A stretch of DNA of 64,000 nt from IMG/VR virus record IMGVR_UViG_3300045988_147927, positions 138,995-202,994 of that record. One strand, 5' to 3'. Positions 39,101-56,877 of this stretch are shown here, piece by piece. The position numbers and the translations under genes are program-made. The stretch's first letter is position 1. Each line of letters begins with the position of its first letter. Origin of the DNA: a virus. A model generated the notes under the pieces. It ran no database searches and had not been told where the DNA came from. It saw only the letters and a program-made list of their open reading frames with translations.

Positions 39101-39502
39101 ATGGGTATTTCTGATATTATAGAGAGTCTTGATAGTAAAGCAGATTTAGAGAGTAGGAATATTAGATTTGTTAAGAAAGGTCAGTATAAAGAAGTATCTG
39201 ATGGGTATCATACAATAGGTGATTTATACGAACATAGGACATATCTTTTTGCTATGATTTGTAAGCTGTATGTGCCTACAGTATATATGTGGAAAACTAA
39301 AAAACATGAAGATGGTACAATGTATGATGATATGTTTTTAGTTGGTATTGATTTACCTGAAGGTCAAATATCATATCATATCAATAATAGGTACTGGGAT
39401 TTATTTGATGGTGTTGAAGAAATACCTAATGCACCTGAGTTTGATGGTTATACATCTGATGATGTTATCAATCGTATAGGGAGGTATATTAAGGATGGCT
39501 AA
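39101..39502 (+). CDS. hypothetical protein
   Basis: 133-aa ORF abutting the upstream stop. The SDGYHTIGDLYEHR motif is common in phage proteins of unknown function. Confidence 0.6.
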   Translation: MGISDIIESLDSKADLESRNIRFVKKGQYKEVSDGYHTIGDLYEHRTYLFAMICKLYVPTVYMWKTKKHEDGTMYDDMFLVGIDLPEGQISYHINNRYWDLFDGVEEIPNAPEFDGYTSDDVINRIGRYIKDG

Positions 39503-40475
39503 ATTTGATGATATATTCAAATCTATGTGTGATGATATTTTGAGTAATGGTACTATTTCTGATGGTGAGGAAGTCAGACCTAAGTGGGAGGATGGGTCAG
39601 ATGCTCACACTATTAAGAAGTTCGCAGTTGTTAATAGATATGATGTTGGTAAGGAGTTTCCGATACCTACTCAAAGACCTATAGCTTATAAGTCATGTGT
39701 GGAAGAGATGTTGTGGATATGGCAAAAACATTCTAATAATGTGAAAGACTTAAACACTCGGATATGGGATAGCTGGGCAGATAGTGATGGTACTATAGGT
39801 ACTGCATATGGGTATCAGATAGGTAAGTTATCTACATATAGGATACATTCAGATGATATTGTGAGTGATATTAGTGATGTATTTGAGGATTTGTTTTATG
39901 ATAGGGAATATAATTGTTTTTATAATAATGGTGGAAGTCATTATATTTCTTATGAATGTATTGAAGATAATGTATATGATGTTAAGATGAATCAGATTGA
40001 TAAGGTGCTATTTGATTTAGTTCATACACCTTTCTCACGTAGGATTATTGCTCATATGTATAATTTTGATGAGTTGAGTACAATGAATTTATATCCTTGT
40101 GCTTATTCTTGTACATTTAATGTTACTTTAGATGATAAAGGTAATAAGGTGTTAAATCTTCTATTAAATCAGAGGAGTCAGGATATTCTAGCTGCTAATG
40201 CTTGGAATGTAGTACAGTATTCAGTATTATTACATATGGTGGCTCGTCATGTTAATATGAGGGTTGGTGAATTAGTTCATGTGATTGCTGATGCTCATAT
40301 TTATGACAGGCACATTCCTATTATAAAAGAGTTAATTAGTAGGGAGACATATAAGGCACCTGAGTTTATTCTTAACAAAGATAAGAATAACTTCTATGAT
40401 TTTACTGTTGATGATGTGTCATTTAAAGATTATAAACATGGTGAACAGATTAAAAATATACCTATTGCAGTTTAG
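39495..40475 (+). CDS. thyA: Thymidylate synthase (Bacillus ThyA-type) with an internal insertion
   Basis: EEMLWIWQ, DGTIGTAYGYQIGK, PFSRRI, LYPCAYSCTFNV (catalytic Cys), LNQRSQD...NAWNVVQYSVL, ADAHIYDRH, and C-terminus APEF...FYDFTVDD..FKDYKHG...IAV, closely parallel to B. subtilis ThyA as I recall it. Confidence 0.88.
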   Translation: MAKFDDIFKSMCDDILSNGTISDGEEVRPKWEDGSDAHTIKKFAVVNRYDVGKEFPIPTQRPIAYKSCVEEMLWIWQKHSNNVKDLNTRIWDSWADSDGTIGTAYGYQIGKLSTYRIHSDDIVSDISDVFEDLFYDREYNCFYNNGGSHYISYECIEDNVYDVKMNQIDKVLFDLVHTPFSRRIIAHMYNFDELSTMNLYPCAYSCTFNVTLDDKGNKVLNLLLNQRSQDILAANAWNVVQYSVLLHMVARHVNMRVGELVHVIADAHIYDRHIPIIKELISRETYKAPEFILNKDKNNFYDFTVDDVSFKDYKHGEQIKNIPIAV

Positions 40476-44676: not shown

Positions 44677-44902
44677 GTGTTATGTTAAATAAGGGATATA
44701 CCATATCTACAGATAAGGTTGTACATAGTATGTATAGTGGTAAAGCATTTGTCTACTAATATTCATTTATTTACGTTATTTACGTTGTGTTGCGATTTTA
44801 TATGTTTAATGTATAAATTAATGTATAGTTATTAAAATTAGCACACAAGTTAATATAAGCGTTTTTATAAGGTATTTTTATAGTGTTGAGGTTTTGGTTT
44901 TT

Positions 44903-45403
44903 ATGGTTAATATGATTATGTGTTTAGATGTGTGTAATGGGTTAGGTAGGGATAATGATTTATTGTATCGATTACCTAGTGATATGAAAATGTTTAGACA
45001 AAGGACATTAGGTATGATTGTTATTATGGGACGAAAGACTTTTGAAAGTTTACCTAAGGTATTACCACATCGTGAGCATTGGGTGATTACTAATCAAGAG
45101 GGATATATTGTACCTGATGGTGTTAAGGTATTTCATTCAAAAGAAGAGGTATTACAGGAATTAGGGGATAGGAGAGCCTTTGTAATAGGTGGTAGTTCTA
45201 TTTATCATATGTTTTTAGACGTGTGTACTAATATCTATGTAACACGTGTCAATGATACTAAAAAGGCTGATACTGTGTTTGATTTTGATGAATCACAGTT
45301 TAGTCATAGTCAGATTGGTATGGGGTTAAAGGAGAAAGATGAGGTAAGTGGTAGATGGGTAAATTATACTTTTGATATGTATACAAGGAAAAAATTAAAA
45401 TAA
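44903..45403 (+). CDS. folA: Dihydrofolate reductase
   Basis: LLYRLPSDMKMFRQRTLG.IVIMGRKTFESLP..LPHREHWVIT...AFVIGGSSIY. Start uncertain (44894 TTG, or 44903/44912 ATG). Confidence 0.85.
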   Translation: MVNMIMCLDVCNGLGRDNDLLYRLPSDMKMFRQRTLGMIVIMGRKTFESLPKVLPHREHWVITNQEGYIVPDGVKVFHSKEEVLQELGDRRAFVIGGSSIYHMFLDVCTNIYVTRVNDTKKADTVFDFDESQFSHSQIGMGLKEKDEVSGRWVNYTFDMYTRKKLK

Positions 45404-45480: not shown

Positions 45481-47310
45481 ATGAATAAGAAAACAATGTT
45501 AACAGCTTTAATTATTTCATCTATGGCAATGAGTGTAGGTGCTGTAGATAATGTTGCTGGTACAGGTAATGGTATCGCTTATGGTAGTGGTAGTCATGCA
45601 CCTAAAGTAGAAAATATTGCTATTGGTGGTAATGCATCTATCAGCTATTCCAATGGTAATAGTAATGCTACAGGTGATATTGTAGTTGGTAAAGATGCTA
45701 ATATCAATAACTATGCTAGTCAAGGTGGTAGTGTTGCTATTGGTAAAAATGCTAAAGTAGAGAATATGGCAGGTGGTCAGGAGGCAAGTTTTGCTTTTGG
45801 ACAAACTTCATATAGTGGTGGTATGTTTTCATCTTCACGTATTCCAGCAGACCCAACAAAGGTAGTAGGAAGTGTGGTTGTTGGTGATAATACGTTTGCT
45901 CGTACTGGTTCTACTATGGTTGGTTCACACAATTATAAAGGTGAGTTAGGTGATACTACAGTTGATACTGCCACTACTCGTAAAGATAATTTAGGTGTGT
46001 ATGCTACTACTATTGGTGCTAATAGTTTTAGTAATGGTGCTTTTATTACTAATACTGGTACATATAACATTGTGTCTAGTGATTATAAAGGTGGTCGCTC
46101 AGATGATATGTTTGGTATCTCTATTAAGAATATGGGCGCTACTGTAAATGGTTCATTCAATAGTATTGAGTCTAAGACTGCTGATGGGTATGGTGCAGGT
46201 ATTGCTAATACTGTAACAGGTGTTGCCAATCGTACTTTCAATACGAATGGTACTTTAGTGTATGGTGCAGGTAATGTGGTAACTAATTCGATTGGTTCAT
46301 TAAGTGGATTCCCTACAAGTGGTGGTAATTCTGCTAAGGATTTTTCTAATAGATTACGTGATGGTGTAAGGAGTTCTCATGGTGCTGGTGCTACTATGGT
46401 TTTTGGTGGTGGTAATGTCGCTGATTATACAAAACGTACCTCTATTATTGGTGTTAATAATGTAGTGGCTGGTGATAGTACACATAGTAGTGAAGATAAT
46501 TTTGTAGTTGGTTATCAAAATACAGGTGTTAGTTTGAATGGTACTACTGTTATTGGTTCTAATCGTTCTGTAGCTAATACCAATAATACTGTAATTATTG
46601 GTAATGTGGTAGATAGTACAGGTTCTATTACTGCAAGTAATGCTGTAGCTATTGGTACTGATACTAATGTTTTGTTTGATGGTGGTGTGGCTTTAGGTTC
46701 TAAATCATATTCTAATCGTAGTGCTAATGAAAATGGTGGGTATGATGTAGTTACTAAGATGTCATCTAGTGATACTTCTAGTGTATGGAAACCTACAGAT
46801 AGTGCTGTTTCAGTAGGTAATGGTGTTGAAGTAACTCGTAGAATTACTTCTGTTGCCGCTGGTTTAGAAGATACAGATGCTGTTAATGTGGCTCAATTAA
46901 AGCGTGTTGTTGATATTGTTGGTGATAATTCATTACAAGAATCAAAATCTTACACTGATAAAGAAGTAGGTAAAGTAGGGGCATCATCTAATGCATTGGC
47001 AGGGTTAAAATTCCTAGATTATAACCCTAATGATAAGTGGTCTTTTGCCACAAGTTTAGGTCATTATCAAGGTTCTAGTGCAGTAGCTTTGGGTGTTGCA
47101 TATCAACCTAATGCGAATGTCATGTTACATGGTGGTGTAGTGCTAGATGGAAAATCATCTTATAATATTGGTGCTAGTTTTAAAGTTGGTAATGGTGGCA
47201 ATAAGGTTGTAGATACAAATGCCTATGGTATGATTAAAAAACTACAGGAAGATAATGAACAGTTGCGAAAAGAATTAGAAGATATTAAGTTCATGTTAAA
47301 TAATAAGTAG
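45481..47310 (+). CDS. Trimeric autotransporter adhesin (YadA-like) with signal peptide, head repeats, neck/stalk, beta-barrel anchor and a short coiled-coil tail
   Basis: MNKKTMLTALIISSMAMSVGA signal peptide. Many G.NA.A.G-type head repeats. AVSVGNG...RRITSVAAGLEDTDAVNVAQLK neck motif. C-terminus ALAGLKFLDY...WSFATSLGHYQGSSAVALGVAYQPNANVMLHGGV...YNIGASFKVG anchor. About 40 extra residues follow (LQEDNEQLRKELEDIKFML). Confidence 0.85.
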   Translation: MNKKTMLTALIISSMAMSVGAVDNVAGTGNGIAYGSGSHAPKVENIAIGGNASISYSNGNSNATGDIVVGKDANINNYASQGGSVAIGKNAKVENMAGGQEASFAFGQTSYSGGMFSSSRIPADPTKVVGSVVVGDNTFARTGSTMVGSHNYKGELGDTTVDTATTRKDNLGVYATTIGANSFSNGAFITNTGTYNIVSSDYKGGRSDDMFGISIKNMGATVNGSFNSIESKTADGYGAGIANTVTGVANRTFNTNGTLVYGAGNVVTNSIGSLSGFPTSGGNSAKDFSNRLRDGVRSSHGAGATMVFGGGNVADYTKRTSIIGVNNVVAGDSTHSSEDNFVVGYQNTGVSLNGTTVIGSNRSVANTNNTVIIGNVVDSTGSITASNAVAIGTDTNVLFDGGVALGSKSYSNRSANENGGYDVVTKMSSSDTSSVWKPTDSAVSVGNGVEVTRRITSVAAGLEDTDAVNVAQLKRVVDIVGDNSLQESKSYTDKEVGKVGASSNALAGLKFLDYNPNDKWSFATSLGHYQGSSAVALGVAYQPNANVMLHGGVVLDGKSSYNIGASFKVGNGGNKVVDTNAYGMIKKLQEDNEQLRKELEDIKFMLNNK

Positions 47311-48168: not shown

Positions 48169-49530
48169 ATGTATATAATCTGTAGATTTACTAATACTGA
48201 AGGAATAGAAAATTTTAATAAGGTTAATGCTGATAGAGGTATTTATATTCATTCAGATATGGTTGAATATAACCTAGATACTGGTGTTTATAGATGTAGT
48301 GGATTAAATGCCTATAATACTGTTGACACTTCGTCTGATGAAAGGTATGACTATTGGCTAGGTATGCCTAGATTTGTTAATAATAAAGTAAGATATGTTG
48401 CAACTATAAAATTTACAACAAAAAATTTAGGGATTGAAGAGCTTGAAAAGATATTTTCTCAGAAAATATCTCCAAAGACTAAGAGTCTTAAATATCCTAA
48501 ACAAGATGTTTTTGCAAACCGTTATTTGAGAGTTGTTGGTGGTGATAATCCGAGTTATCCAGTATACGTTGTTTCAAAAGGCAGATATGAAAAGACTTTA
48601 GCAAAGACTGTTAGAGTTTTGAATAGGATGAATGTTCCTCATTTTGTTGTTGTTGAACCTGATGAAGTTGGTTTGTATAGAGAGTCATTCAATGCTCTTG
48701 GGTATACTTATAGTACTATACTTGAGCTAGATATGTCTTATAAAGACAATTATGCTACTCTTGATGATAGAGGTAATACTATTGGTAAAGGTCCTGGTGG
48801 TGCTAGGAACTTTTGCTGGGATGATTCTATTAAGAGAGGGTTTTCTTATCACTGGGTTTTAGATGATAATATTGAGTGGTTTAGGTATTTTACAGATAAT
48901 TTTCAAAGAAAAACTCTTAGTGGTGTTTGTTTTAAAGCAGCTGAGGATTTTATCACTAGATTTAAGAATGTAGCAATGGGTTCTCTTAATTATAGTATGT
49001 TTTTAGATGCTAGAAATACTGCATATCCATATATAAAAAATACTAGAATGTATTCTATTATTTTCATTAGGAATGATATACCTTATAGGTGGAGAGGTAG
49101 GTATAATGAAGATACTATAATATCTTTGGATTGTTTGTCAGATGGTTGGTGTACTATTCAGATGTGTGCTTTTACTGCTGACAAGTTAGCTACACAACGT
49201 ATAGGTGGTGGCAACTCATATATGTTTTATTTCAAAGAAGGTACTGATAATAAATCTCAAATGTTAGTTGATGTTTATCCTCAATATGCTCAAAAGGTTT
49301 TTAAGTTTAACAGAATACATCATTATGTTGACTATAGTATCTTTAATGGTAGGCTTGAATATAAAGATGATTTTGATATATCTAAGTTATCTAAGGTTGA
49401 TAATTATGGTATGAAGATGGTAAAAATACCTAAAGAGTGGGATTACACTGAAAAAGATTCAAGGGAATACATAGAATCTCATATTGATGAGTGTGAAGTT
49501 GTTGATATGTTTGAAGGATTTAGTGTTTGA
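48169..49530 (+). CDS. Two-domain protein; C-terminal part glycosyltransferase-like (GT-A-type DDN motif)
   Basis: YPVYVVSKGRYEKTLAKTVRVLNRMNVPHFVVVEPDE...GPGGARNFCWDDS...YHWVLDDNI resembles GT-A / TET-JBP-associated glycosyltransferase layouts (recalled, weak). Confidence 0.35.
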   Translation: MYIICRFTNTEGIENFNKVNADRGIYIHSDMVEYNLDTGVYRCSGLNAYNTVDTSSDERYDYWLGMPRFVNNKVRYVATIKFTTKNLGIEELEKIFSQKISPKTKSLKYPKQDVFANRYLRVVGGDNPSYPVYVVSKGRYEKTLAKTVRVLNRMNVPHFVVVEPDEVGLYRESFNALGYTYSTILELDMSYKDNYATLDDRGNTIGKGPGGARNFCWDDSIKRGFSYHWVLDDNIEWFRYFTDNFQRKTLSGVCFKAAEDFITRFKNVAMGSLNYSMFLDARNTAYPYIKNTRMYSIIFIRNDIPYRWRGRYNEDTIISLDCLSDGWCTIQMCAFTADKLATQRIGGGNSYMFYFKEGTDNKSQMLVDVYPQYAQKVFKFNRIHHYVDYSIFNGRLEYKDDFDISKLSKVDNYGMKMVKIPKEWDYTEKDSREYIESHIDECEVVDMFEGFSV

Positions 49531-49573
49531 TTTGTTTACATAACTTTACAATTTGATATATAGTGTGTTATAA

Positions 49574-49606
49574 TAACCTTGTAAATATTACAAGGTTATT
49601 TTTTTT
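49574..49606 (+). terminator. Rho-independent terminator
   Basis: taaccttgta / tacaaggtta stem followed by T8. Confidence 0.85.
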
Positions 49607-50165: not shown

Positions 50166-51068
50166 ATGATTCATTATAGGAATGGTAATGCAGATATAAC
50201 ATTATATGATGATGGTACTAGGATTATTGAGACTGATGATAGTATTCTCAGATTAGATACGCCTCTTAACATTGATATAAGGGTATCTAAAAGATGTCCT
50301 TATGGATATAATGCTGACACAGGTGTTAGTGTTTGTAGTTTTTGTCATGAATCAGCTACTACAGATGGTGATGTGTGTGATTATGATAAATTGTTAGATG
50401 TTATCATGGCTGCTGATTTACCAAAAGGTACTGAGTTGGCAATAGGTGCAAATCAAATATCTGATGATTTTATAGAGTTTGTTAAGGATTTGTATAATCT
50501 AGGTTTTATAGTTAATGTAACTGTTAATGAGAGATATATTGCAGATGGTGGTGATAGGCATCTTAAAAAGGTTATGCAGTATATCAAGGGGTTAGGTATT
50601 AGTTTTCGTACATTAGATGGTAGTATGGGTTTACCTGAATGGATATCAGATTATAGTAATACTGTTGTTCATGTGATATGTGGTATTGATAGTCTTAGGG
50701 ATGTGTGTAAGTTGCATAAAAAATATCGTAAAGTACTTGTTCTAGGTGAGAAAGATTTTGGGTTTAATGCTAATAAAGTAGACCTAACTTCTAATTCTCA
50801 TATTGAATGGGATACACATATTATGAAATTGACTAAGTTGTTTGATATAGTTTCTTTTGATAATTTAGCTTTAGAGCAGTTACACATTAAAGATAAAATC
50901 TCTAAAGAGGAGTATCAGGCTTTTTATCAAGGTGAGCATTCAATGTATATTAATGCTGTTGATGAGTATTTTGCACCTAGTAGTAGAATAATGGATGTTA
51001 TTAAGAAGTTTGATGAGATTAGTTTACGTGAATATTTTAAAATGAAGGAGAACATGATATGCGATTAG
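50166..51068 (+). CDS. Cys-cluster protein, possible non-canonical radical-SAM / Fe-S TIM-barrel enzyme
   Basis: IDIRVSKRCPYGYNADTGVSVCSFCHESATTDG (C-x12-C-x2-C following a beta-strand, reminiscent of variant QueE-type clusters). Alternating beta/alpha pattern downstream. ATG 50166 follows TGAGGGA. Confidence 0.25.
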   Translation: MIHYRNGNADITLYDDGTRIIETDDSILRLDTPLNIDIRVSKRCPYGYNADTGVSVCSFCHESATTDGDVCDYDKLLDVIMAADLPKGTELAIGANQISDDFIEFVKDLYNLGFIVNVTVNERYIADGGDRHLKKVMQYIKGLGISFRTLDGSMGLPEWISDYSNTVVHVICGIDSLRDVCKLHKKYRKVLVLGEKDFGFNANKVDLTSNSHIEWDTHIMKLTKLFDIVSFDNLALEQLHIKDKISKEEYQAFYQGEHSMYINAVDEYFAPSSRIMDVIKKFDEISLREYFKMKENMICD

Positions 51069-51847
51069 TTAGAAATGGTGTATTTGAGACAAATAGTTCT
51101 TCTGCCCATTCTTTGGCTTATAAGAATACAGTCTTGCGTGATTATGATTATAAACCAAGCAAAGATTTGTGTTTATCTATTAAGGAATTGAGGCTAACAG
51201 AAAAACCAAAGGAATATGAAATGTATTCATATATGCCGTTATATTTTGATGAGTATGGATGGGGGTTCGATATATTGACTTCCCCAGCAGAAAAGTTAAG
51301 TTATTTAATGTCATCTGTTTATCCGTATAAAACTTGGGGAATTGTTAAAGAAGACCAATTTTTCAAGCAAGTGATTCAATGGTTAAGTGAATTGGATATT
51401 GTGGTAGAATTGCCAGAGGAATATGGTGAATCTTCTGAAGTTGATGCCTATGTTGACCATCAATCTTGGAATGTCGTTACAAAGGATATGTTTCAAACAA
51501 AAGAAGATTTGTTGACATATCTATTTAATAACGACATTGTAATCTATATTGAAAATGATAATTCTGATGTCATGCAAAACTGGGTTGATACACCAAAAGA
51601 AGAAATTGATTATCGTCAAGCAATGTATTGGTGTGTTTCACAAAGTAAATGTGTAAGACGAAAATCTTGGGATGATGGTGTGTATTTGATTTATGATGTT
51701 GTAGAGGATGATGAAAATCATTATAGATTGGATTATTTATTGGTAGACAACAAAATTAAAACCAATTATAAACCGACTGAAGATGATAAAAATGCAAATG
51801 ACTGGACAGTTGCTTTGGAGGTATCTAAATATGAAATTAATTCGTAA
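51059..51847 (+). CDS. Unknown putative metalloenzyme domain (FETNSSSAHS family) fused to a C-terminal DUF2829/Tad2-like domain
   Basis: N-terminal domain motifs NGVFETNSSSAHS, FDEYGWGFD, YVDHQS, DIVIYIENDN. C-terminal 75 aa, IDYRQAMYWCVSQSKCVRRKSWDDGVYLIY...NYKPTEDDKNANDWTVA, fit the DUF2829 pattern (..A...l..G..vrR..W......, W.P...D..A.DW.v). Confidence 0.5.
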   Translation: MRLVRNGVFETNSSSAHSLAYKNTVLRDYDYKPSKDLCLSIKELRLTEKPKEYEMYSYMPLYFDEYGWGFDILTSPAEKLSYLMSSVYPYKTWGIVKEDQFFKQVIQWLSELDIVVELPEEYGESSEVDAYVDHQSWNVVTKDMFQTKEDLLTYLFNNDIVIYIENDNSDVMQNWVDTPKEEIDYRQAMYWCVSQSKCVRRKSWDDGVYLIYDVVEDDENHYRLDYLLVDNKIKTNYKPTEDDKNANDWTVALEVSKYEINS

Positions 51848-52379
51848 TGGTGTGTTTGAAACAAATTCTAGTTCCGCACATTCTTTAGCTTATAAGAATG
51901 AAGATGTTTTACGAGGTGTTTATGAAAGTAATGGTGTTAAAGATTTTAAAGATGGTAGATATAGACTAACTGAAATACCTGAAAAGTATAAGAATTATGT
52001 ATTACACCCTAGATTTGATGAGTATGGGTGGGGATTTGACATATTAGAAACACCTGATGAAAAATTAAGTTATATCTTAACTAATGAGTATGAAGATGTA
52101 AAATCTTTACAGAAGGTATATAATGGTAAGTTTTTTGTAACTATTGTTAAGTGGTTGCAAGAGTTTGGTATAAATGTTAGCATTAAAAAATTACAATTAG
52201 ATGAGTGGGGATACGTTGATGGGTATATTGACCATGAGAGTAAATTTGTAATTCCAAAGGATATTTTTCATGATAAAGAGGATTTAATCACTTATCTGTT
52301 CAATGATGATATTGTTGTGTACATTGAGAATGATAATGAAGAGTGTATGCAGTGGCTAAAGAAGAGTAATAAAAAGTGA
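51831..52379 (+). CDS. Paralogue of the FETNSSSAHS-family domain (no Tad2-like extension)
   Basis: MKLIRNGVFETNSSSAHSLAYKN, FDEYGWGFD, YIDHES, DIVVYIENDN. ATG follows GGAGG and overlaps the upstream gene by 17 nt. Confidence 0.6.
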   Translation: MKLIRNGVFETNSSSAHSLAYKNEDVLRGVYESNGVKDFKDGRYRLTEIPEKYKNYVLHPRFDEYGWGFDILETPDEKLSYILTNEYEDVKSLQKVYNGKFFVTIVKWLQEFGINVSIKKLQLDEWGYVDGYIDHESKFVIPKDIFHDKEDLITYLFNDDIVVYIENDNEECMQWLKKSNKK

Positions 52380-52399: not shown

Positions 52400-54664
52400 A
52401 TGAAAGCGTTAGTGTTACTTAGGGGTTGTCCAGGAAGTGGTAAATCGACTCTTGTTAATGATTTAGGTTTGGGACAGTATACATTGTGTCCAGATAAACT
52501 TAGATTGATGTATGGTTCTTCTGTAATGTTAGAAGATGGTACTTATGGTATTGACCAATCATGTAATAAGGAAGTGTTTGATACTTTTTATAAGATGTTG
52601 GAGTATCGTATGAGTAAAGGTGAGTTTACTGTTATAGATGCTACACACTGTTCCTCTGTAAAAACTGTAAAAAAACAAATTTCTGAATATAGAAAATTAG
52701 CTAAGAGATATAATTATAGAATTTATCAACATGATATGACTACAGATTTATTAAAGATATCTGAGCAGAATGAAATGCGTAATGGTACATATTCTTTTGT
52801 ACCACATTATATTGTTGATAAGATGTTACGTGTTATGGAAAGTATGGATACGTTACATCGAGAGATTAAAAAGATAGATTTAGAGGAATTTATCAATTCG
52901 TACAATACTGATACTATATGTAATGATACTCAATATGATAAAGTAAAAGTAATAGGTGATATACATTCTTGTAATAGTGTTCTTAAAGATGCTTTAGAAG
53001 ATTTTAACAATGATACATTATATGTGTTTGTTGGTGATTATTTCGATAGAGGTATTGAGCATTATGATACTCTAAAAACTATTCAAGAGCTGTCTGAGTA
53101 TAAGAATGTTGTATTATTAGAAGGTAATCATGAGTCGCATTGGATTCGATATGCACATGATGAAGTAGGAGAAGATTTAGGGTATAAGAGATTTGTCAAT
53201 ACAACATTAAAGGATTGGCTAACTCATTATGATAGTGAAAAGACATTAAAGAAAGAATTGCGTATATTATATCGAAAACTCAATTCAGTCTATTTTTTTA
53301 GCTGTGGTGATAGAAAGTATATGGTAACTCATGCAGGGTTGACTAATTTTATTGACAATGCCTTAACTGTATCATCTGAGCAGTGTATTAAAGGTGTTGG
53401 TGGGTATGATTTTGAGGTTTCACTAGAATATAAAAAGAATCATGATAATGATGGATATATTCAAGTTTTTGGACATAGAGGTGTAGTTTCTGCAAAAGAT
53501 TGTAGCTATTCCTTAGAGGGTAGAGTTGAGTTTGGTGGTTATTTAAGAGTTTTAGATGTCAATACTGAAGGTGCAGTTGTATTCAATTATGAAAATGTAG
53601 TGTATAACAAGAACTATATGGAAGATGAGTATAAATTCTTAAAAGAGGTTGGTAGAAGCTCTATTGAGACTGATTCATTGGAAGTTAATGTTATAGCTAA
53701 CTCTAAACTTGTTAGAGTTAAAGATTGTAAACCTGATATGATTAGTCTTAATTTCACAGAAAAGGCTTTTCATAAATGTTTGTGGGATGATGTTACTGTT
53801 AAAGCCAGAGGTTTATTTGTACATAATAAAACCGGAAAGGTAAAGGCTCGTTCTTATGATAAATTCTTCAATCTTGGGCAGATGATGGATAAGGATGAAG
53901 AATTAAATTCTTTTGAATACCCTATCAGAGTTTCAAAAAAAGAAAATGGTTTTCTAGGAATTGTTTCTTGGGATTTTGATAATGATTGCTTTATTATCGC
54001 TAGTAAAACATCTACTTCATCTGAACATGCTGGATATGTTAAAGAAAACTTTGAAATGGTTGATTATAATATTAGATATGCTTTACGAGATATTTTAATC
54101 AAGTACAAATGTTCCGCAGTTTTTGAAGTTATTCACCCTAAAGATGTGCATATTGTTGATTATAACAAAAAGCATAAAATGTTCTTATTAGATTTTGTAC
54201 CTAATAAGTTACATTTAGACAATGGAATTAATATTGATTATGAGTTTTCTGAAAAATGTAGAAAAGAGTTCAGTAAAATCTATGAAGAGAATCCTATGTA
54301 TGCTTTTGATGATGTGTTTAGTGTTGTTTGGTCTGCTACTATTAATGATAGGAAAATGCTAGATTCATATATTCAAAAAGCACATGATGCTGATTTTGAG
54401 GGGTATGTACTAACTGATGCTAGAGGATATATGACTAAGATAAAGTCAAATATGTACCTAGAGTGGAAATATTGTAGGACAATGTTGAGTCATTATATTA
54501 AGGGATGGGAAATTGATACCACTAAATTAAATGACTTTGAGAAGAGTTTCTATAATTTTCTACGCAGTCAGTTTATAGAGGATTTAACAGATAAAAACAT
54601 TATAGAAATTAGAGAAATGTACAATTCTTATATTAATAAATCAGTTGGTGATAGTAATGAATAA
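52400..54664 (+). CDS. Trifunctional RNA repair enzyme (Pnkp-like): 5'-kinase + metallophosphatase + RNA ligase-like nucleotidyltransferase
   Basis: Kinase: LLRGCPGSGKST and CPDKLR. Phosphatase: VIGDIHSC, FVGDYFDRG, LLEGNHE, VTHAG, FGHRG. Ligase: motif I SKKENGFLG, motif IV FEGYVLTD, motif V MTKIKS. Confidence 0.8.
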   Translation: MKALVLLRGCPGSGKSTLVNDLGLGQYTLCPDKLRLMYGSSVMLEDGTYGIDQSCNKEVFDTFYKMLEYRMSKGEFTVIDATHCSSVKTVKKQISEYRKLAKRYNYRIYQHDMTTDLLKISEQNEMRNGTYSFVPHYIVDKMLRVMESMDTLHREIKKIDLEEFINSYNTDTICNDTQYDKVKVIGDIHSCNSVLKDALEDFNNDTLYVFVGDYFDRGIEHYDTLKTIQELSEYKNVVLLEGNHESHWIRYAHDEVGEDLGYKRFVNTTLKDWLTHYDSEKTLKKELRILYRKLNSVYFFSCGDRKYMVTHAGLTNFIDNALTVSSEQCIKGVGGYDFEVSLEYKKNHDNDGYIQVFGHRGVVSAKDCSYSLEGRVEFGGYLRVLDVNTEGAVVFNYENVVYNKNYMEDEYKFLKEVGRSSIETDSLEVNVIANSKLVRVKDCKPDMISLNFTEKAFHKCLWDDVTVKARGLFVHNKTGKVKARSYDKFFNLGQMMDKDEELNSFEYPIRVSKKENGFLGIVSWDFDNDCFIIASKTSTSSEHAGYVKENFEMVDYNIRYALRDILIKYKCSAVFEVIHPKDVHIVDYNKKHKMFLLDFVPNKLHLDNGINIDYEFSEKCRKEFSKIYEENPMYAFDDVFSVVWSATINDRKMLDSYIQKAHDADFEGYVLTDARGYMTKIKSNMYLEWKYCRTMLSHYIKGWEIDTTKLNDFEKSFYNFLRSQFIEDLTDKNIIEIREMYNSYINKSVGDSNE

Positions 54665-55490: not shown

Positions 55491-56021
55491 ATGGAAATAT
55501 ATTTTACAAGTGATTTACATTTAGGACATGAAAATATAATACGTTTTACTAATAGACCTTTTGGTAGTGTTGAAGAGATGAATGATAGAATTATACAAAA
55601 TTATAATTCTATCATTCATAAAAATGACTTGGTGTATATCTTAGGTGATTTAACGTATAAGATTAATGTTGAAGAGTCTAATAAATTAATATGGAAGTTA
55701 AAAGGTCTAAAGGTTCTAATTCGTGGCAATCATGACTTAAAGTATGATAGTAGTTTGTTTGAAGATATTCTTGATTATAAAGAGTTTAACTATAATAAAG
55801 TAAAGTATGTTCTTATGCATTATCCGTTAATGGAATGGAATGATAGTTATAAGAAAAAAAGTATCCATTTACATGGACATATTCATGCTGATAGTGAGTA
55901 TAATCATAAAAACTTAGAGAATGGTATTATGAGGTATGATGTAGGTGTAGATGCTAATAACTATTATCCTGTATCATTAGAGTATATTGAGAGTTATTTT
56001 AAGAATTTAATTCATAGATAG
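55491..56021 (+). CDS. Metallophosphoesterase (calcineurin-like)
   Basis: YFTSDLHLGHENI, YILGDL, IRGNHD, MHYP, HLHGHIH. Confidence 0.85.
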   Translation: MEIYFTSDLHLGHENIIRFTNRPFGSVEEMNDRIIQNYNSIIHKNDLVYILGDLTYKINVEESNKLIWKLKGLKVLIRGNHDLKYDSSLFEDILDYKEFNYNKVKYVLMHYPLMEWNDSYKKKSIHLHGHIHADSEYNHKNLENGIMRYDVGVDANNYYPVSLEYIESYFKNLIHR

Positions 56022-56652: not shown

Positions 56653-56849
56653 TTTTTAGGTGAGTTACTATTTACATATGTCGGAGTATGTGGTATATTG
56701 TATATGTAATTTGTGAGTTGTTATGTAATAATAAGCACTCTCACATATAAAGTTTTTATATTTTTCTCCCTTTGATAAATGAAATATAAAAAATAACATA
56801 ATTCTCACAAGTTACACTATGAATTTTTTTCATAGATTTCTCTCCTATA

Positions 56850-56877
56850 AAAGACCTACAATTTGTAGGTCTTTTTT
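56850..56877 (+). terminator. Rho-independent terminator
   Basis: aagacctaca / tgtaggtctt stem followed by TTTTT. Confidence 0.8.

What the first reader, a model, noticed from the sequence alone, without database searches (positions are those of the whole stretch)
51059..52379. Tandem paralogues of an unknown putative metalloenzyme, one fused to a Tad2 (DUF2829)-like domain: candidate anti-signalling counter-defence module
Seen: two overlapping genes encode domains of about 180 aa with strictly conserved motifs: (R/K)NGVFETNSSSAHS at the extreme N-terminus, FDEYGWGFD, KLSY, Y(V/I)DH(Q/E)S and DIV(I/V)YIENDN. The conserved E/H/D/H residues suggest a metal site. Only the first copy continues into a domain of about 75 aa, IDYRQAMYWCVSQSKCVRRKSWDDGVYLIY...NYKPTEDDKNANDWTVAL. 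This matches the two signature ends of DUF2829.
Known: DUF2829 proteins include Tad2, a phage sponge that sequesters the gcADPR signal of Thoeris.
Inference: an uncharacterised enzyme fused to an immune-signal sponge, duplicated, and sitting directly upstream of an RNA-repair enzyme, points to a counter-defence module. One option is a hydrolase plus sponge acting on nucleotide second messengers. I am not aware of a described function for the FETNSSS.HS domain.
Basis: partly seen in the sequence, partly recalled or inferred. Interest (0 to 1): 0.7.

Follow-up and report, generated by a model that had tools for sequence, protein, structure and literature searches.

The report
Radical-SAM enzyme with N-terminally tagged client proteins
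The two duplicated phage genes are real and one does carry a Tad2-like signal-binding domain, but their defining feature is an invariant 20-residue N-terminal tag that always occurs beside an orphan radical SAM enzyme, in hundreds of phage lineages.

Summary
W1 (51059-51847, 262 aa) and W2 (51831-52379, 182 aa) are paralogues (53% identity, E 6e-54). W1 ends in a domain that passes Pfam's Tad2-like threshold and models as the Tad2 fold: the top 14 PDB matches are all Tad2 or AcrIIA7.

The gene just upstream (50166-51068) encodes a divergent radical SAM enzyme, R. R and the FETNSSS proteins (F) form a near-obligate module:
- R lies next to F in 73 of 83 viral loci and 62 of 79 genome loci.
- F lies next to R in 80 of 80 loci found by searching with R.
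- Each locus has one R and 1-10 F copies.
- Natural F-R fusions exist.

The only universal feature of F is the N-terminal tag (R5, E10, N12, S13-S15 invariant; E at residue 10 or 11). The tag sits on at least three unrelated protein bodies. AlphaFold models it with low confidence in both W1 and W2. The body of W1 and W2 has no Pfam, PDB or Foldseek match.

Best reading (about 0.5): R binds, and probably modifies, the tag. The Tad2 fusion and the RNA-repair neighbour occur only in close relatives. An anti-signalling role is possible but untested.

The parts
50166..51068 (+). R: orphan radical SAM enzyme. The ORF opens at GTG 50127, but the likely start is ATG 50166, giving 300 aa. The cluster motif here is C-x12-C-x2-C; it is the canonical C-x3-C-x2-C in most relatives. 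A GGGN motif is present. Its stop overlaps the W1 start.
   Evidence: phrog_16999 'Fe-S oxidoreductase', E 5e-22. Homologues are 300 aa. Three Cys are invariant. The family profile hits solved radical SAM enzymes at E 4e-5 to 1e-2. One member passes Pfam PF04055. NCBIfam hits are weak only, all far below cut-offs.
51059..51847 (+). W1: tagged class-A client protein fused to a Tad2-like domain (262 aa). An AAGGAG lies 8 nt upstream of the start.
51059..51118 (+). N-terminal tag of W1 (residues 1-20, MRLVRNGVFETNSSSAHSLA). The invariant core FETNSSS.H is at 51083-51109.
   Evidence: Invariant residues are R5, E10, N12, S13, S14, S15. pLDDT is below 50 for residues 1-13.
51608..51826 (+). Tad2-like (DUF2829) domain of W1, residues 184-256.
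   Evidence: Pfam PF11195, E 5.5e-7, above cut-off. Predicted as one helix plus a five-stranded sheet. Foldseek's top 14 PDB matches are all Tad2 or AcrIIA7.
51831..52379 (+). W2: tagged class-A client protein with no extra domain (182 aa). The tag is at 51831-51890, with its core at 51855-51881. A GGAGG lies 9 nt upstream.
52400..54664 (+). Kinase-phosphoesterase-RNA ligase (Pnkp-like, 754 aa). It lies downstream in the same apparent transcription unit. It is context only and is not a conserved part of the module.
   Evidence: Pfam AAA_33, Metallophos and RNA_lig_T4_1. phrog_8238, E 1e-161. Found near R/F in only 3 lineages.
49545..49600 (+). The best promoter-like site (11 of 12) overlaps a 13-bp hairpin followed by a T run. 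Together they separate the TAGT glycosyltransferase gene from the unit that holds R, W1 and W2. The next strong terminator-like hairpin is at 56849-56875.
   Evidence: These are consensus matches only; the promoter count does not exceed chance.

Best explanation
W1 and W2 are client proteins of the adjacent radical SAM enzyme R. The functional unit is one R plus one to ten proteins that share an invariant N-terminal tag, about M-K-x-I-R-x-G-V-F-E-T-N-S-S-S-x-H-S.

Shown:
- R and the tag co-occur in both directions.
- The two are sometimes fused in one protein.
- The tag sits at a fixed distance from Met1 and is the only element common to several unrelated protein bodies.

Inferred:
- R docks the tag, perhaps using its own conserved N-terminal YKNGN...DGTKIR hairpin.
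- R then performs radical chemistry on the tag, most plausibly by abstracting a hydrogen from one of the three invariant serines. By analogy with the anaerobic sulfatase-maturing enzyme, this would give an aldehyde or dehydro residue.
- In class-A bodies such as W1 and W2, the modified residue would work with the conserved GWG, D-H and N-D-N residues as the active or binding site of an effector.
- A softer version has the tag only recruit different client proteins to R as specificity subunits.
- In W1's clade, one client gained a short, SPO1-type Tad2-like domain. This suggests that at least this client deals with a nucleotide-derived ligand.
For: Co-occurrence:
- R lies on the same strand within 6 kb of F in 73 of 83 viral loci.
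- R lies within 8 kb of F in 62 of 79 genome loci.
- All 80 loci found by searching with R have at least one tagged gene.
- Copy number is one R to 1-10 F.
- Natural fusions exist: P0259, whose C-terminal half matches window R at E 1e-30, and L040.

The tag:
- R5, E10, N12 and S13-15 are invariant in 145 diverse members.
- The Glu is at residue 10 or 11 in 246 of 265 members.
- All six Ser codons are used at each Ser position.
- The tag sits on different bodies. Class A has DH and NDN (319 of 588). Short forms lack both. A Cys-rich class C matches the family HMM only over residues 1-31 to 1-37. At least 24 further body clusters were found.
- By a crude motif test, 40 R loci appear to have no class-A protein.
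- Both AlphaFold models are confident overall (pLDDT 83 and 82), yet score the tag below 50 and model it as coil.
- Variable tag positions are more alike within a locus (44%) than between loci (30%), even when the bodies are under 35% identical.

R:
- R is a radical SAM enzyme of no named family.
- Inteins interrupt R at its GGGN motif in two lineages, which marks it as an active, conserved enzyme.
Against: - No direct evidence shows that R modifies or even binds the tag. No complex could be modelled.
- Low pLDDT at an N-terminus is common. An invariant stretch also carries no covariation signal.
- Class-A bodies keep their own near-invariant polar residues (D134, H135, N167, D168, N169, W67, Y81). 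The tag could therefore be a catalytic loop of an ordinary enzyme, and the short and Cys-rich forms could be degenerate partners.
- R has only three invariant Cys, so it lacks the SPASM or auxiliary clusters typical of protein and peptide maturases. No recognisable RiPP recognition element was seen.
- The within-locus tag similarity is confounded by shared ancestry, gene conversion and over-extended ORF starts.
- The chemistry proposed for the serines rests on analogy alone.
Confidence: 0.5

Rival explanations
1. Pathway partners. F class A is a conventional small hydrolase or transferase. Its first strand and loop (FETNSSS.H), together with D-H and N-D-N, form a metal or phosphate-binding active site. 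R makes or consumes the same small-molecule, nucleotide or RNA substrate. The two are linked because they catalyse consecutive steps, for example in nucleotide or tRNA modification or repair, not because R acts on F.
For: - Class A keeps polar residues typical of catalytic sites, often at the extreme C-terminus (...IDNDNH).
- Many alpha/beta enzymes place a catalytic loop directly after an N-terminal strand.
- The module sits among nucleotide-metabolism and RNA-repair genes. In the window these are a thymidylate-synthase homologue, DHFR, Pnkp and a phosphoesterase. Elsewhere they include a phosphoesterase (9 lineages), Thg1-like, an RlaP-like nucleotidyltransferase, a kinase-HD protein, dUTPase and ThyX.
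- Inteins in R are typical of nucleotide-metabolism enzymes.
Against: - The tag is kept intact on bodies that lack D-H, N-D-N and GWG, and these are the only tagged proteins in some R loci.
- One to ten paralogues per R is odd for a fixed pathway.
- Neither sequence nor fold links F to any hydrolase family.
- No neighbour other than R is conserved in more than 9 of about 51 lineages.
Confidence: 0.2
2. W1 and W2 are autonomous metallohydrolases that destroy nucleotide immune signals. W1 also sponges the signal through its Tad2-like domain. Together with the RNA-repair enzyme they form a counter-defence cassette, and R is incidental.
For: - The Tad2-like domain is real by sequence and by fold.
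- Tad2 proteins sequester gcADPR, and some also bind cyclic dinucleotides.
- A domain fusion usually implies related function.
- Paralogue arrays and rapid body diversification suit an arms-race role.
Against: - The fusion is limited to one clade, whereas the family has at least 570 clusters at 50% identity.
- The Pnkp neighbour is present in only 3 lineages.
- R is universal, so it cannot be incidental.
- F resembles no known signal-degrading fold, and PADLOC has no match.
- The Asn of the W-N dyad needed for gcADPR binding is not conserved, and W73 is Tyr.
- The domain is the short SPO1 type, which lacks the insertion that binds cyclic dinucleotides.
Confidence: 0.12
3. Targeting and processing signal. 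The tag is a capsid-targeting or export propeptide, cleaved after Glu10 (V-F-E|T) by a prohead-type protease, as in the T4 internal proteins. The diverse bodies would be ejected proteins.
For: - The tag is at the extreme N-terminus at a fixed distance from Met1.
- A hydrophobic-x-Glu site resembles T4-type prohead protease sites (my own knowledge, not tested).
- The cargo bodies are diverse and multi-copy.
Against: - This does not explain the obligate, reciprocal link with a radical SAM enzyme or the F-R fusions.
- The residues after the putative cleavage site (TNSSS.HS) are even more conserved than those before it.
- The genes lie in the replication and nucleotide-metabolism block, not with the head genes.
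Confidence: 0.05

Closest known systems
Anaerobic sulfatase-maturing enzyme (anSME) with its many sulfatase clients
   Same: One radical SAM enzyme serves many paralogous client proteins through a short invariant motif that contains serine. The modified residue then acts beside Asp, Asn and His residues of the client.
   Different: - anSME has a SPASM domain with two auxiliary clusters, whereas R has only three invariant Cys.
- The sulfatase motif is (C/S)-x-(P/A)-x-R and is internal, not an N-terminal ETNSSS.
- F bodies are not of the alkaline-phosphatase fold; there is no PDB or Foldseek match.
- No modification has been shown here.
Glycyl-radical enzyme activases with their substrates (PflA-PflB, NrdG-NrdD)
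   Same: A small radical SAM enzyme without auxiliary clusters acts on a short conserved peptide of an adjacent gene product. R gives weak NrdG2 and PFL-activase hits.
   Different: - The Gly in the tag is not invariant (92 of 145), so a glycyl radical is excluded.
- The motif is N-terminal, not C-terminal.
- The clients are small and heterogeneous.
Radical SAM RiPP maturases with tandem precursor genes (e.g. SuiB-SuiA, PqqE-PqqA)
   Same: There is one maturase and several tandem genes that share a conserved N-terminal recognition sequence with variable remainders. A source annotation of an R homologue cites SuiB, and the family profile hits SuiB, PqqE and SkfB.
   Different: - The clients are folded proteins of 100-330 aa, not peptides.
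- No SPASM domain or RiPP recognition element is seen.
- The conserved part is only about 20 residues and begins at Met1.
Tad2 (DUF2829) anti-Thoeris sponge; AcrIIA7/HgmTad2
   Same: W1 residues 184-256 pass the Pfam threshold and share the helix plus five-stranded sheet fold. The Trp of the W-N dyad and the final Asp of the S-x-T-D motif are kept.
   Different: - Here the domain is the C-terminal part of a 262-aa protein, not a stand-alone tetramer of about 90 aa.
- Identity to solved Tad2 proteins is 14-26%.
- The Asn after the Trp is variable in this clade, W73 is Tyr and T78 is Asp.
- It has no long insertion for cyclic dinucleotides.

Membership tests
Tad2-like / DUF2829 (Pfam PF11195), for W1 residues 184-256 | Match to the family HMM above the curated gathering score | tested here: met
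   E 5.5e-7, 30.5 bits against a cut-off of 25, covering profile positions 2-72 of 73. The only PDB hits of the clade profile A3 are two Tad2 proteins, though at E about 1.
Tad2-like / DUF2829 (Pfam PF11195), for W1 residues 184-256 | [quoted passage not shown] | tested here: met
   The AlphaFold model has helix 185-194 and strands 197-201, 208-216, 222-230, 233-236 and 249-256, with pLDDT 77-93. Foldseek's top 14 PDB matches are all Tad2 or AcrIIA7, probability 1.00, target TM 0.48-0.77.
Functional Tad2 sponge (gcADPR sequestration) | Ligand-contact residues W25/N26 and S76/T78/D79 (SPO1 numbering; W21/N22 and S90/T92/D93 in HgmTad2) | tested here: inconclusive
   W, T (for S76) and D79 are kept. 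N26 aligns to a variable position in this clade (SW-x-DG). W73 is Tyr and T78 is Asp. The N-terminal mapping rests on the motif only, not on a printed alignment.
Functional Tad2 sponge (gcADPR sequestration) | Homotetramer with pockets at protomer interfaces; nanomolar binding of gcADPR | not testable with these tools
   Only monomer models were available. Here the domain is fused behind a body of about 180 aa.
Radical SAM superfamily (for R, 50166-51068) | Three-Cys cluster motif (C-x3-C-x2-C), a glycine-rich SAM motif, and a match to the superfamily profile | tested here: met
   C44, C57 and C60 are invariant. The motif is canonical C-x3-C-x2-C in most members and C-x12-C-x2-C in the window clade. 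A GGGN motif is present. The profile hits solved radical SAM enzymes at E 4e-5. L043's R scores 30.3 bits on PF04055 against a cut-off of 29.5. Precomputed PF04055 hits exist for many members.
SPASM/twitch radical SAM maturases (anSME, PqqE, SuiB, sactisynthases) | C-terminal Cys-rich domain that binds auxiliary Fe-S clusters | tested here: not met
   Only the three core Cys are conserved across 36 diverse R sequences. NCBIfam hits cover residues of about 35-170 only and score 12-36 bits against cut-offs of 131-650.
Glycyl-radical enzyme / activase pair | Invariant Gly in the substrate motif | tested here: not met
   Position 7 of the tag is Gly in 92 of 145 members; the rest include Asn 21, Ser 15 and a few others.
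Known phosphoesterase or nuclease families (metallophosphoesterase, 2H, HD, SGNH, HNH) for the F class-A body | Significant sequence-profile or fold match | tested here: not met
   - Pfam: no family for 145 members.
- NCBIfam: none.
- PDB by profile: best E 0.16.
- Foldseek PDB: best E 1.5, probability 0.03.
- BFVD: only a near-identical uncharacterised protein.
- PADLOC: none.

The most novel reading that the evidence does not exclude
Phages, from gut myoviruses to Lak megaphages, cyanophage Ma-LMM01 and viruses binned with archaeal and CPR genomes, carry a previously unrecognised protein-maturation system. An orphan radical SAM enzyme installs a new modification on an invariant N-terminal Ser-Ser-Ser tag. 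This arms a rapidly diversifying set of effector proteins. W1 would be such an effector coupled to an immune-signal-binding Tad2 domain, which would make the module a radical-SAM-dependent counter-defence arsenal.
Probability: 0.25. Interest if true: 0.92.

Novelty: categorically new. Interest (0 to 1): 0.78.

Why it matters
- If R acts on the tag, this would be a new radical-SAM-dependent protein modification, found almost only in viruses. It is present in at least 570 protein clusters at 50% identity, and in cultured phages (Ma-LMM01 gp128 and gp130) where it can be tested.
- It would give a handle on a large block of phage genes of unknown function. Any protein that starts with the tag could be read as a client of R.
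- The W1 fusion is, as far as I found, the first Tad2-like domain seen as part of a larger multi-domain protein. It links the module to nucleotide immune signalling in at least one clade.
- Even if the modification idea is wrong, the strict one-R-to-many-F architecture with a novel fold defines a new functional unit that ranks high for experiment.

Tried and rejected
Searches for the F body that found nothing:
1. Sequence and profile searches against Pfam, NCBIfam, PADLOC and PDB. PHROGs lists only unknown-function families.
2. Foldseek of two independent models against PDB and BFVD. The N-terminal body had no match.

Hypotheses about the tag or the F body that were rejected:
3. Glycyl-radical motif: the Gly is not invariant.
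4. 2H, SGNH, HNH, metallophosphoesterase or alkaline-phosphatase-like site: motif order or size did not fit and no fold hit supported any of them. This was reasoning.
5. Tat signal (RR-x-F): only R5 is invariant and no hydrophobic region follows.

Structure predictions that could not be run:
7. AlphaFold of the natural F-R fusion P0259 was meant to show whether the tag docks into R. It was abandoned because MAFFT misaligned the F-only rows into the R region. The last prediction job went to W1 instead.

Other dead ends:
8. No close phage relative in INPHARED at the DNA level.
9. Literature searches for the motif, for TAGT with radical SAM, and for phage-encoded radical SAM found no description of this module.
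10. No third conserved gene was found. Nothing beyond R recurs in more than 9 of about 51 lineages.
Full report
**1. Observation**

The window is AT-rich (about 30% G+C). Its G-over-C skew is strong (0.22-0.49 in 2-kb windows), and almost all long ORFs are on the + strand.

At the given coordinates there are two overlapping + strand genes.
- W1 is 51059-51847 (262 aa). An AAGGAG lies 8 nt upstream.
- W2 is listed from 51783, but the family-consistent start is the ATG at 51831 (182 aa). A GGAGG lies 9 nt upstream, and its closest homologues are 182 aa.
- The two share 53% identity over 177 residues, E 6e-54.
- Only W1 continues into a further domain. Residues 184-251 match Pfam PF11195 (Tad2-like) at E 5.5e-7, 30.5 bits against a cut-off of 25.

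**2. The Tad2-like domain**

An AlphaFold model of W1 has mean pLDDT 81.6. It gives residues 185-256 one helix followed by five strands, at pLDDT 77-93. This is the architecture described for SPO1 Tad2 (10.1101/2023.05.01.538930).

Foldseek against the PDB returns Tad2 or AcrIIA7 chains as the top 14 matches. All have probability 1.00 and target-normalised TM 0.48-0.77. The fold claim holds.

Function is less clear.
- The residues that contact gcADPR are W25/N26 and S76/T78/D79 in SPO1 Tad2, or W21/N22 and S90/T92/D93 in HgmTad2.
- This clade keeps the Trp and the final Asp.
- The position after the Trp is variable. W73 is Tyr and T78 is Asp.
- The domain is the short type. It lacks the 35-41-residue insertion that binds cyclic dinucleotides in HgmTad2.
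- It is fused behind about 180 residues, whereas known Tad2 proteins are free-standing tetramers.

**3. The N-terminal part is not a known domain**

- Pfam, NCBIfam and PADLOC give nothing, and PHROGs gives only an unknown-function family.
- Scanning 145 diverse members against Pfam finds no shared family.
- A family profile finds nothing in the PDB; the best E is 0.16.
- Two AlphaFold models (pLDDT 83.2 and 81.6) have no Foldseek match in the PDB. In BFVD the only match is a near-identical uncharacterised protein.
- The family is large. An exhaustive HMMER scan finds 570 clusters at 50% identity with E of 1e-3 or better. Most are stand-alone proteins of 140-215 aa.

**4. The decisive context: a radical SAM partner**

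The gene immediately upstream (likely start 50166, stop 51068, overlapping the W1 start) is annotated in PHROGs as an 'Fe-S oxidoreductase'.

One distant homologue of W2, P0259 (500 aa), is a fusion. Its C-terminal half matches this upstream protein at E 1e-30 and carries C-x3-C-x2-C.

An alignment of 36 diverse relatives shows exactly three invariant Cys and a GGGN motif.
- Its profile hits solved radical SAM enzymes (GDGT-MAS, SuiB, QueE, PqqE, SkfB, viperin, MoaA), but only over the cluster-binding half.
- One member passes Pfam PF04055.
- NCBIfam gives dozens of weak radical SAM hits, all far below their cut-offs.

R is therefore a genuine radical SAM enzyme of no named family, with no SPASM or auxiliary-cluster domain.

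**5. Strength of the association**

| Search seed | Collection | Result |
|---|---|---|
| FETNSSS family (F) | viral contigs | R on the same strand within 6 kb in 73 of 83 loci |
| FETNSSS family (F) | bacterial and archaeal genome contigs | R nearby in 62 of 79 loci; many of the rest are short contigs |
| R | viral contigs | at least one tagged gene within 8 kb in 80 of 80 loci |

- Copy number is one R to 1-10 F. Two or three tandem F genes is the commonest state.
- A second F-R fusion exists, in L040.
- In two lineages R carries an intein inserted exactly before GGGN.
- Cultured phages with the pair include Microcystis phage Ma-LMM01 (gp128 is R, gp130 is F). R also has homologues in the Lak megaphages.
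- By contrast, the TAGT glycosyltransferase, the Pnkp-like enzyme and the Tad2 fusion accompany the module only in the window's close relatives.
- The window itself has two F genes and one R.

**6. What is actually conserved in F**

- In 145 diverse members, R5, E10, N12, S13, S14 and S15 are invariant. F9, T11 and H17 are above 90%.
- The Glu sits at residue 10 or 11 from Met1 in 246 of 265 proteins.
- All six Ser codons are used at each Ser position.
- Class-A members such as W1 and W2 also keep G66-W67, Y81, D134-H135 and N167-D168-N169.
- Other tagged proteins next to R do not keep these.
  - Short forms of 108-145 aa keep only the tag and a terminal FGxYGY.
  - A Cys-rich class matches the family HMM only over residues 1-31 to 1-37.
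  - At least 24 further body clusters show no BLAST similarity to the main one.
- By a crude motif test, 40 R loci have no class-A protein at all.
- Both AlphaFold models treat the tag as low-confidence coil (residues 1-11 and 1-13 below pLDDT 50), while the rest is confident.
- The variable tag positions are more similar within a locus (44%) than between loci (30%), even for proteins with unrelated bodies. This result is confounded by shared ancestry.

**7. Interpretation**

The only element shared by everything that travels with R is the N-terminal tag. The simplest reading is that R recognises the tag.

I commit to a maturase-client model at confidence about 0.5. R docks the tag and probably modifies it. 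One of the three serines is the most plausible target, by analogy with anaerobic sulfatase maturation. The body then acts as an effector.
- Shown: co-occurrence, fusion, tag invariance and position, and body heterogeneity.
- Inferred: binding, modification, the chemistry, and the effector function.
- A softer variant has the tag recruit clients to R as specificity subunits.

Rivals:
- F class A and R are consecutive enzymes of a nucleotide or RNA pathway, with the tag as a catalytic loop (0.2).
This is compatible with the maturase model as a downstream function for W1, but is not supported for the family as a whole.
- A capsid-targeting or cleavage signal (0.05).

**8. Context of the module in the window**

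A strong hairpin followed by a T run at 49572-49600 overlaps the best promoter-like site. The next strong hairpin is at 56849-56875. Together they bracket a tightly packed unit. In gene order it holds an unknown 180-aa gene, R, W1, W2, the Pnkp-like gene, two unknown genes, a phosphoesterase and another unknown gene. These are consensus matches only.

Across lineages the neighbourhood is generally nucleotide metabolism and RNA repair, but nothing apart from R is conserved.

**9. Comparison with known systems and novelty**

The architecture works like a radical SAM maturase with its clients (anSME with sulfatases, glycyl-radical activases, RiPP maturases). It fails the defining tests for each.
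- It has no SPASM or auxiliary Cys.
- It has no invariant Gly.
- The clients are folded proteins.

The class-A body has no fold match. I found no description of the motif or the module in the searchable literature.

I therefore rate the R-plus-tag module as categorically new. The caveat is that its function is inferred. The Tad2-like domain on its own is a new fusion variant of a known family.

Noticed in passing
window 39495-40475, 44894-45403, 48169-49530: The window encodes a thymidylate-synthase homologue (phrog_160, E 1.5e-69), DHFR (PF00186, E 7e-41) and a TET-associated glycosyltransferase (PF20691, E 4e-34). Together they suggest hydroxymethyl-pyrimidine synthesis followed by glycosylation of the phage DNA. 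No TET/JBP gene was looked for.
   Followed up: partly
window 1-64000: Strand asymmetry is very strong. GC skew is +0.22 to +0.49 in every 2-kb window, G+C is about 30%, and nearly all ORFs of 100 aa or more are on the + strand.
   Followed up: no
window 52400-54664: A 754-aa protein combines three domains: a P-loop kinase, a calcineurin-like phosphoesterase and a T4-type RNA ligase (phrog_8238, E 1e-161). This resembles a single-chain RNA end-healing and sealing enzyme of the bacterial Pnkp type.
   Followed up: partly
window 45481-47310: A 609-aa phage protein carries YadA-like stalk and membrane-anchor domains (PF05662, PF03895). This is unusual in a phage and may hint at a Gram-negative host.
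   Followed up: no
L082:8611-10710 and L116:3629-5704: The radical SAM partner is interrupted by an intein (LAGLIDADG plus HINT). In two separate lineages the insertion is at the same site, directly before the GGGN motif. In L053 and L112 an HNH/AP2-like homing-endonuclease ORF lies just upstream of R.
   Followed up: partly
L210:7010-7996: A single 328-aa ORF holds two complete copies of the tag plus body (KKLIRKSVFETNSSSAHSL appears twice). The second tag is therefore internal, unless the second copy has an unrecognised start codon.
   Followed up: no
L200:7103-7990, L223:7062-7964, L226:7050-7964, L221:4639-5511: A class-A subfamily has GGNDN in place of IDNDN and a conserved C-terminal extension of about 130 aa (PDPTFYHVPE...YKYEL...). 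This extension has no Pfam match in the two related members tested (P0203, P0214).
   Followed up: partly
L150:79-1023, L160:5963-6904, L158:7995-8600, L154:423-1043, L130:7995-8624, L121:7995-8540: A Cys-rich tagged class has a conserved C-x(11-12)-C-x-C block near its C-terminus, which may be a metal site. In these loci it lies directly upstream of R and is the only tagged protein.
   Followed up: partly
window 55491-56021 and nine other lineages (e.g. L119:1402-1983, L070:7862-8461): A calcineurin-like phosphoesterase of about 180-190 aa is the most frequent neighbour of the module after R. It appears in 9 of about 51 R lineages. Thg1-like, RlaP-like nucleotidyltransferase, kinase-HD, NADAR and cysteine desulfurase genes each recur in 4-5 lineages.
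   Followed up: partly
L083 (Microcystis phage Ma-LMM01) 4058-6891: In Ma-LMM01 the tagged protein gp130 and R (gp128) are separated by gp129, which has a phage ProQ C-terminal-like domain (PF24203, E 7e-15). Upstream is gp131, annotated as 'histidyl tRNA synthetase', which has no Pfam hit.
   Followed up: partly
P0398 (362 aa): One R homologue carries a C-terminal Lar-type restriction-alleviation zinc-ribbon domain (PF14354; TIGR03655, E 4e-7).
   Followed up: no
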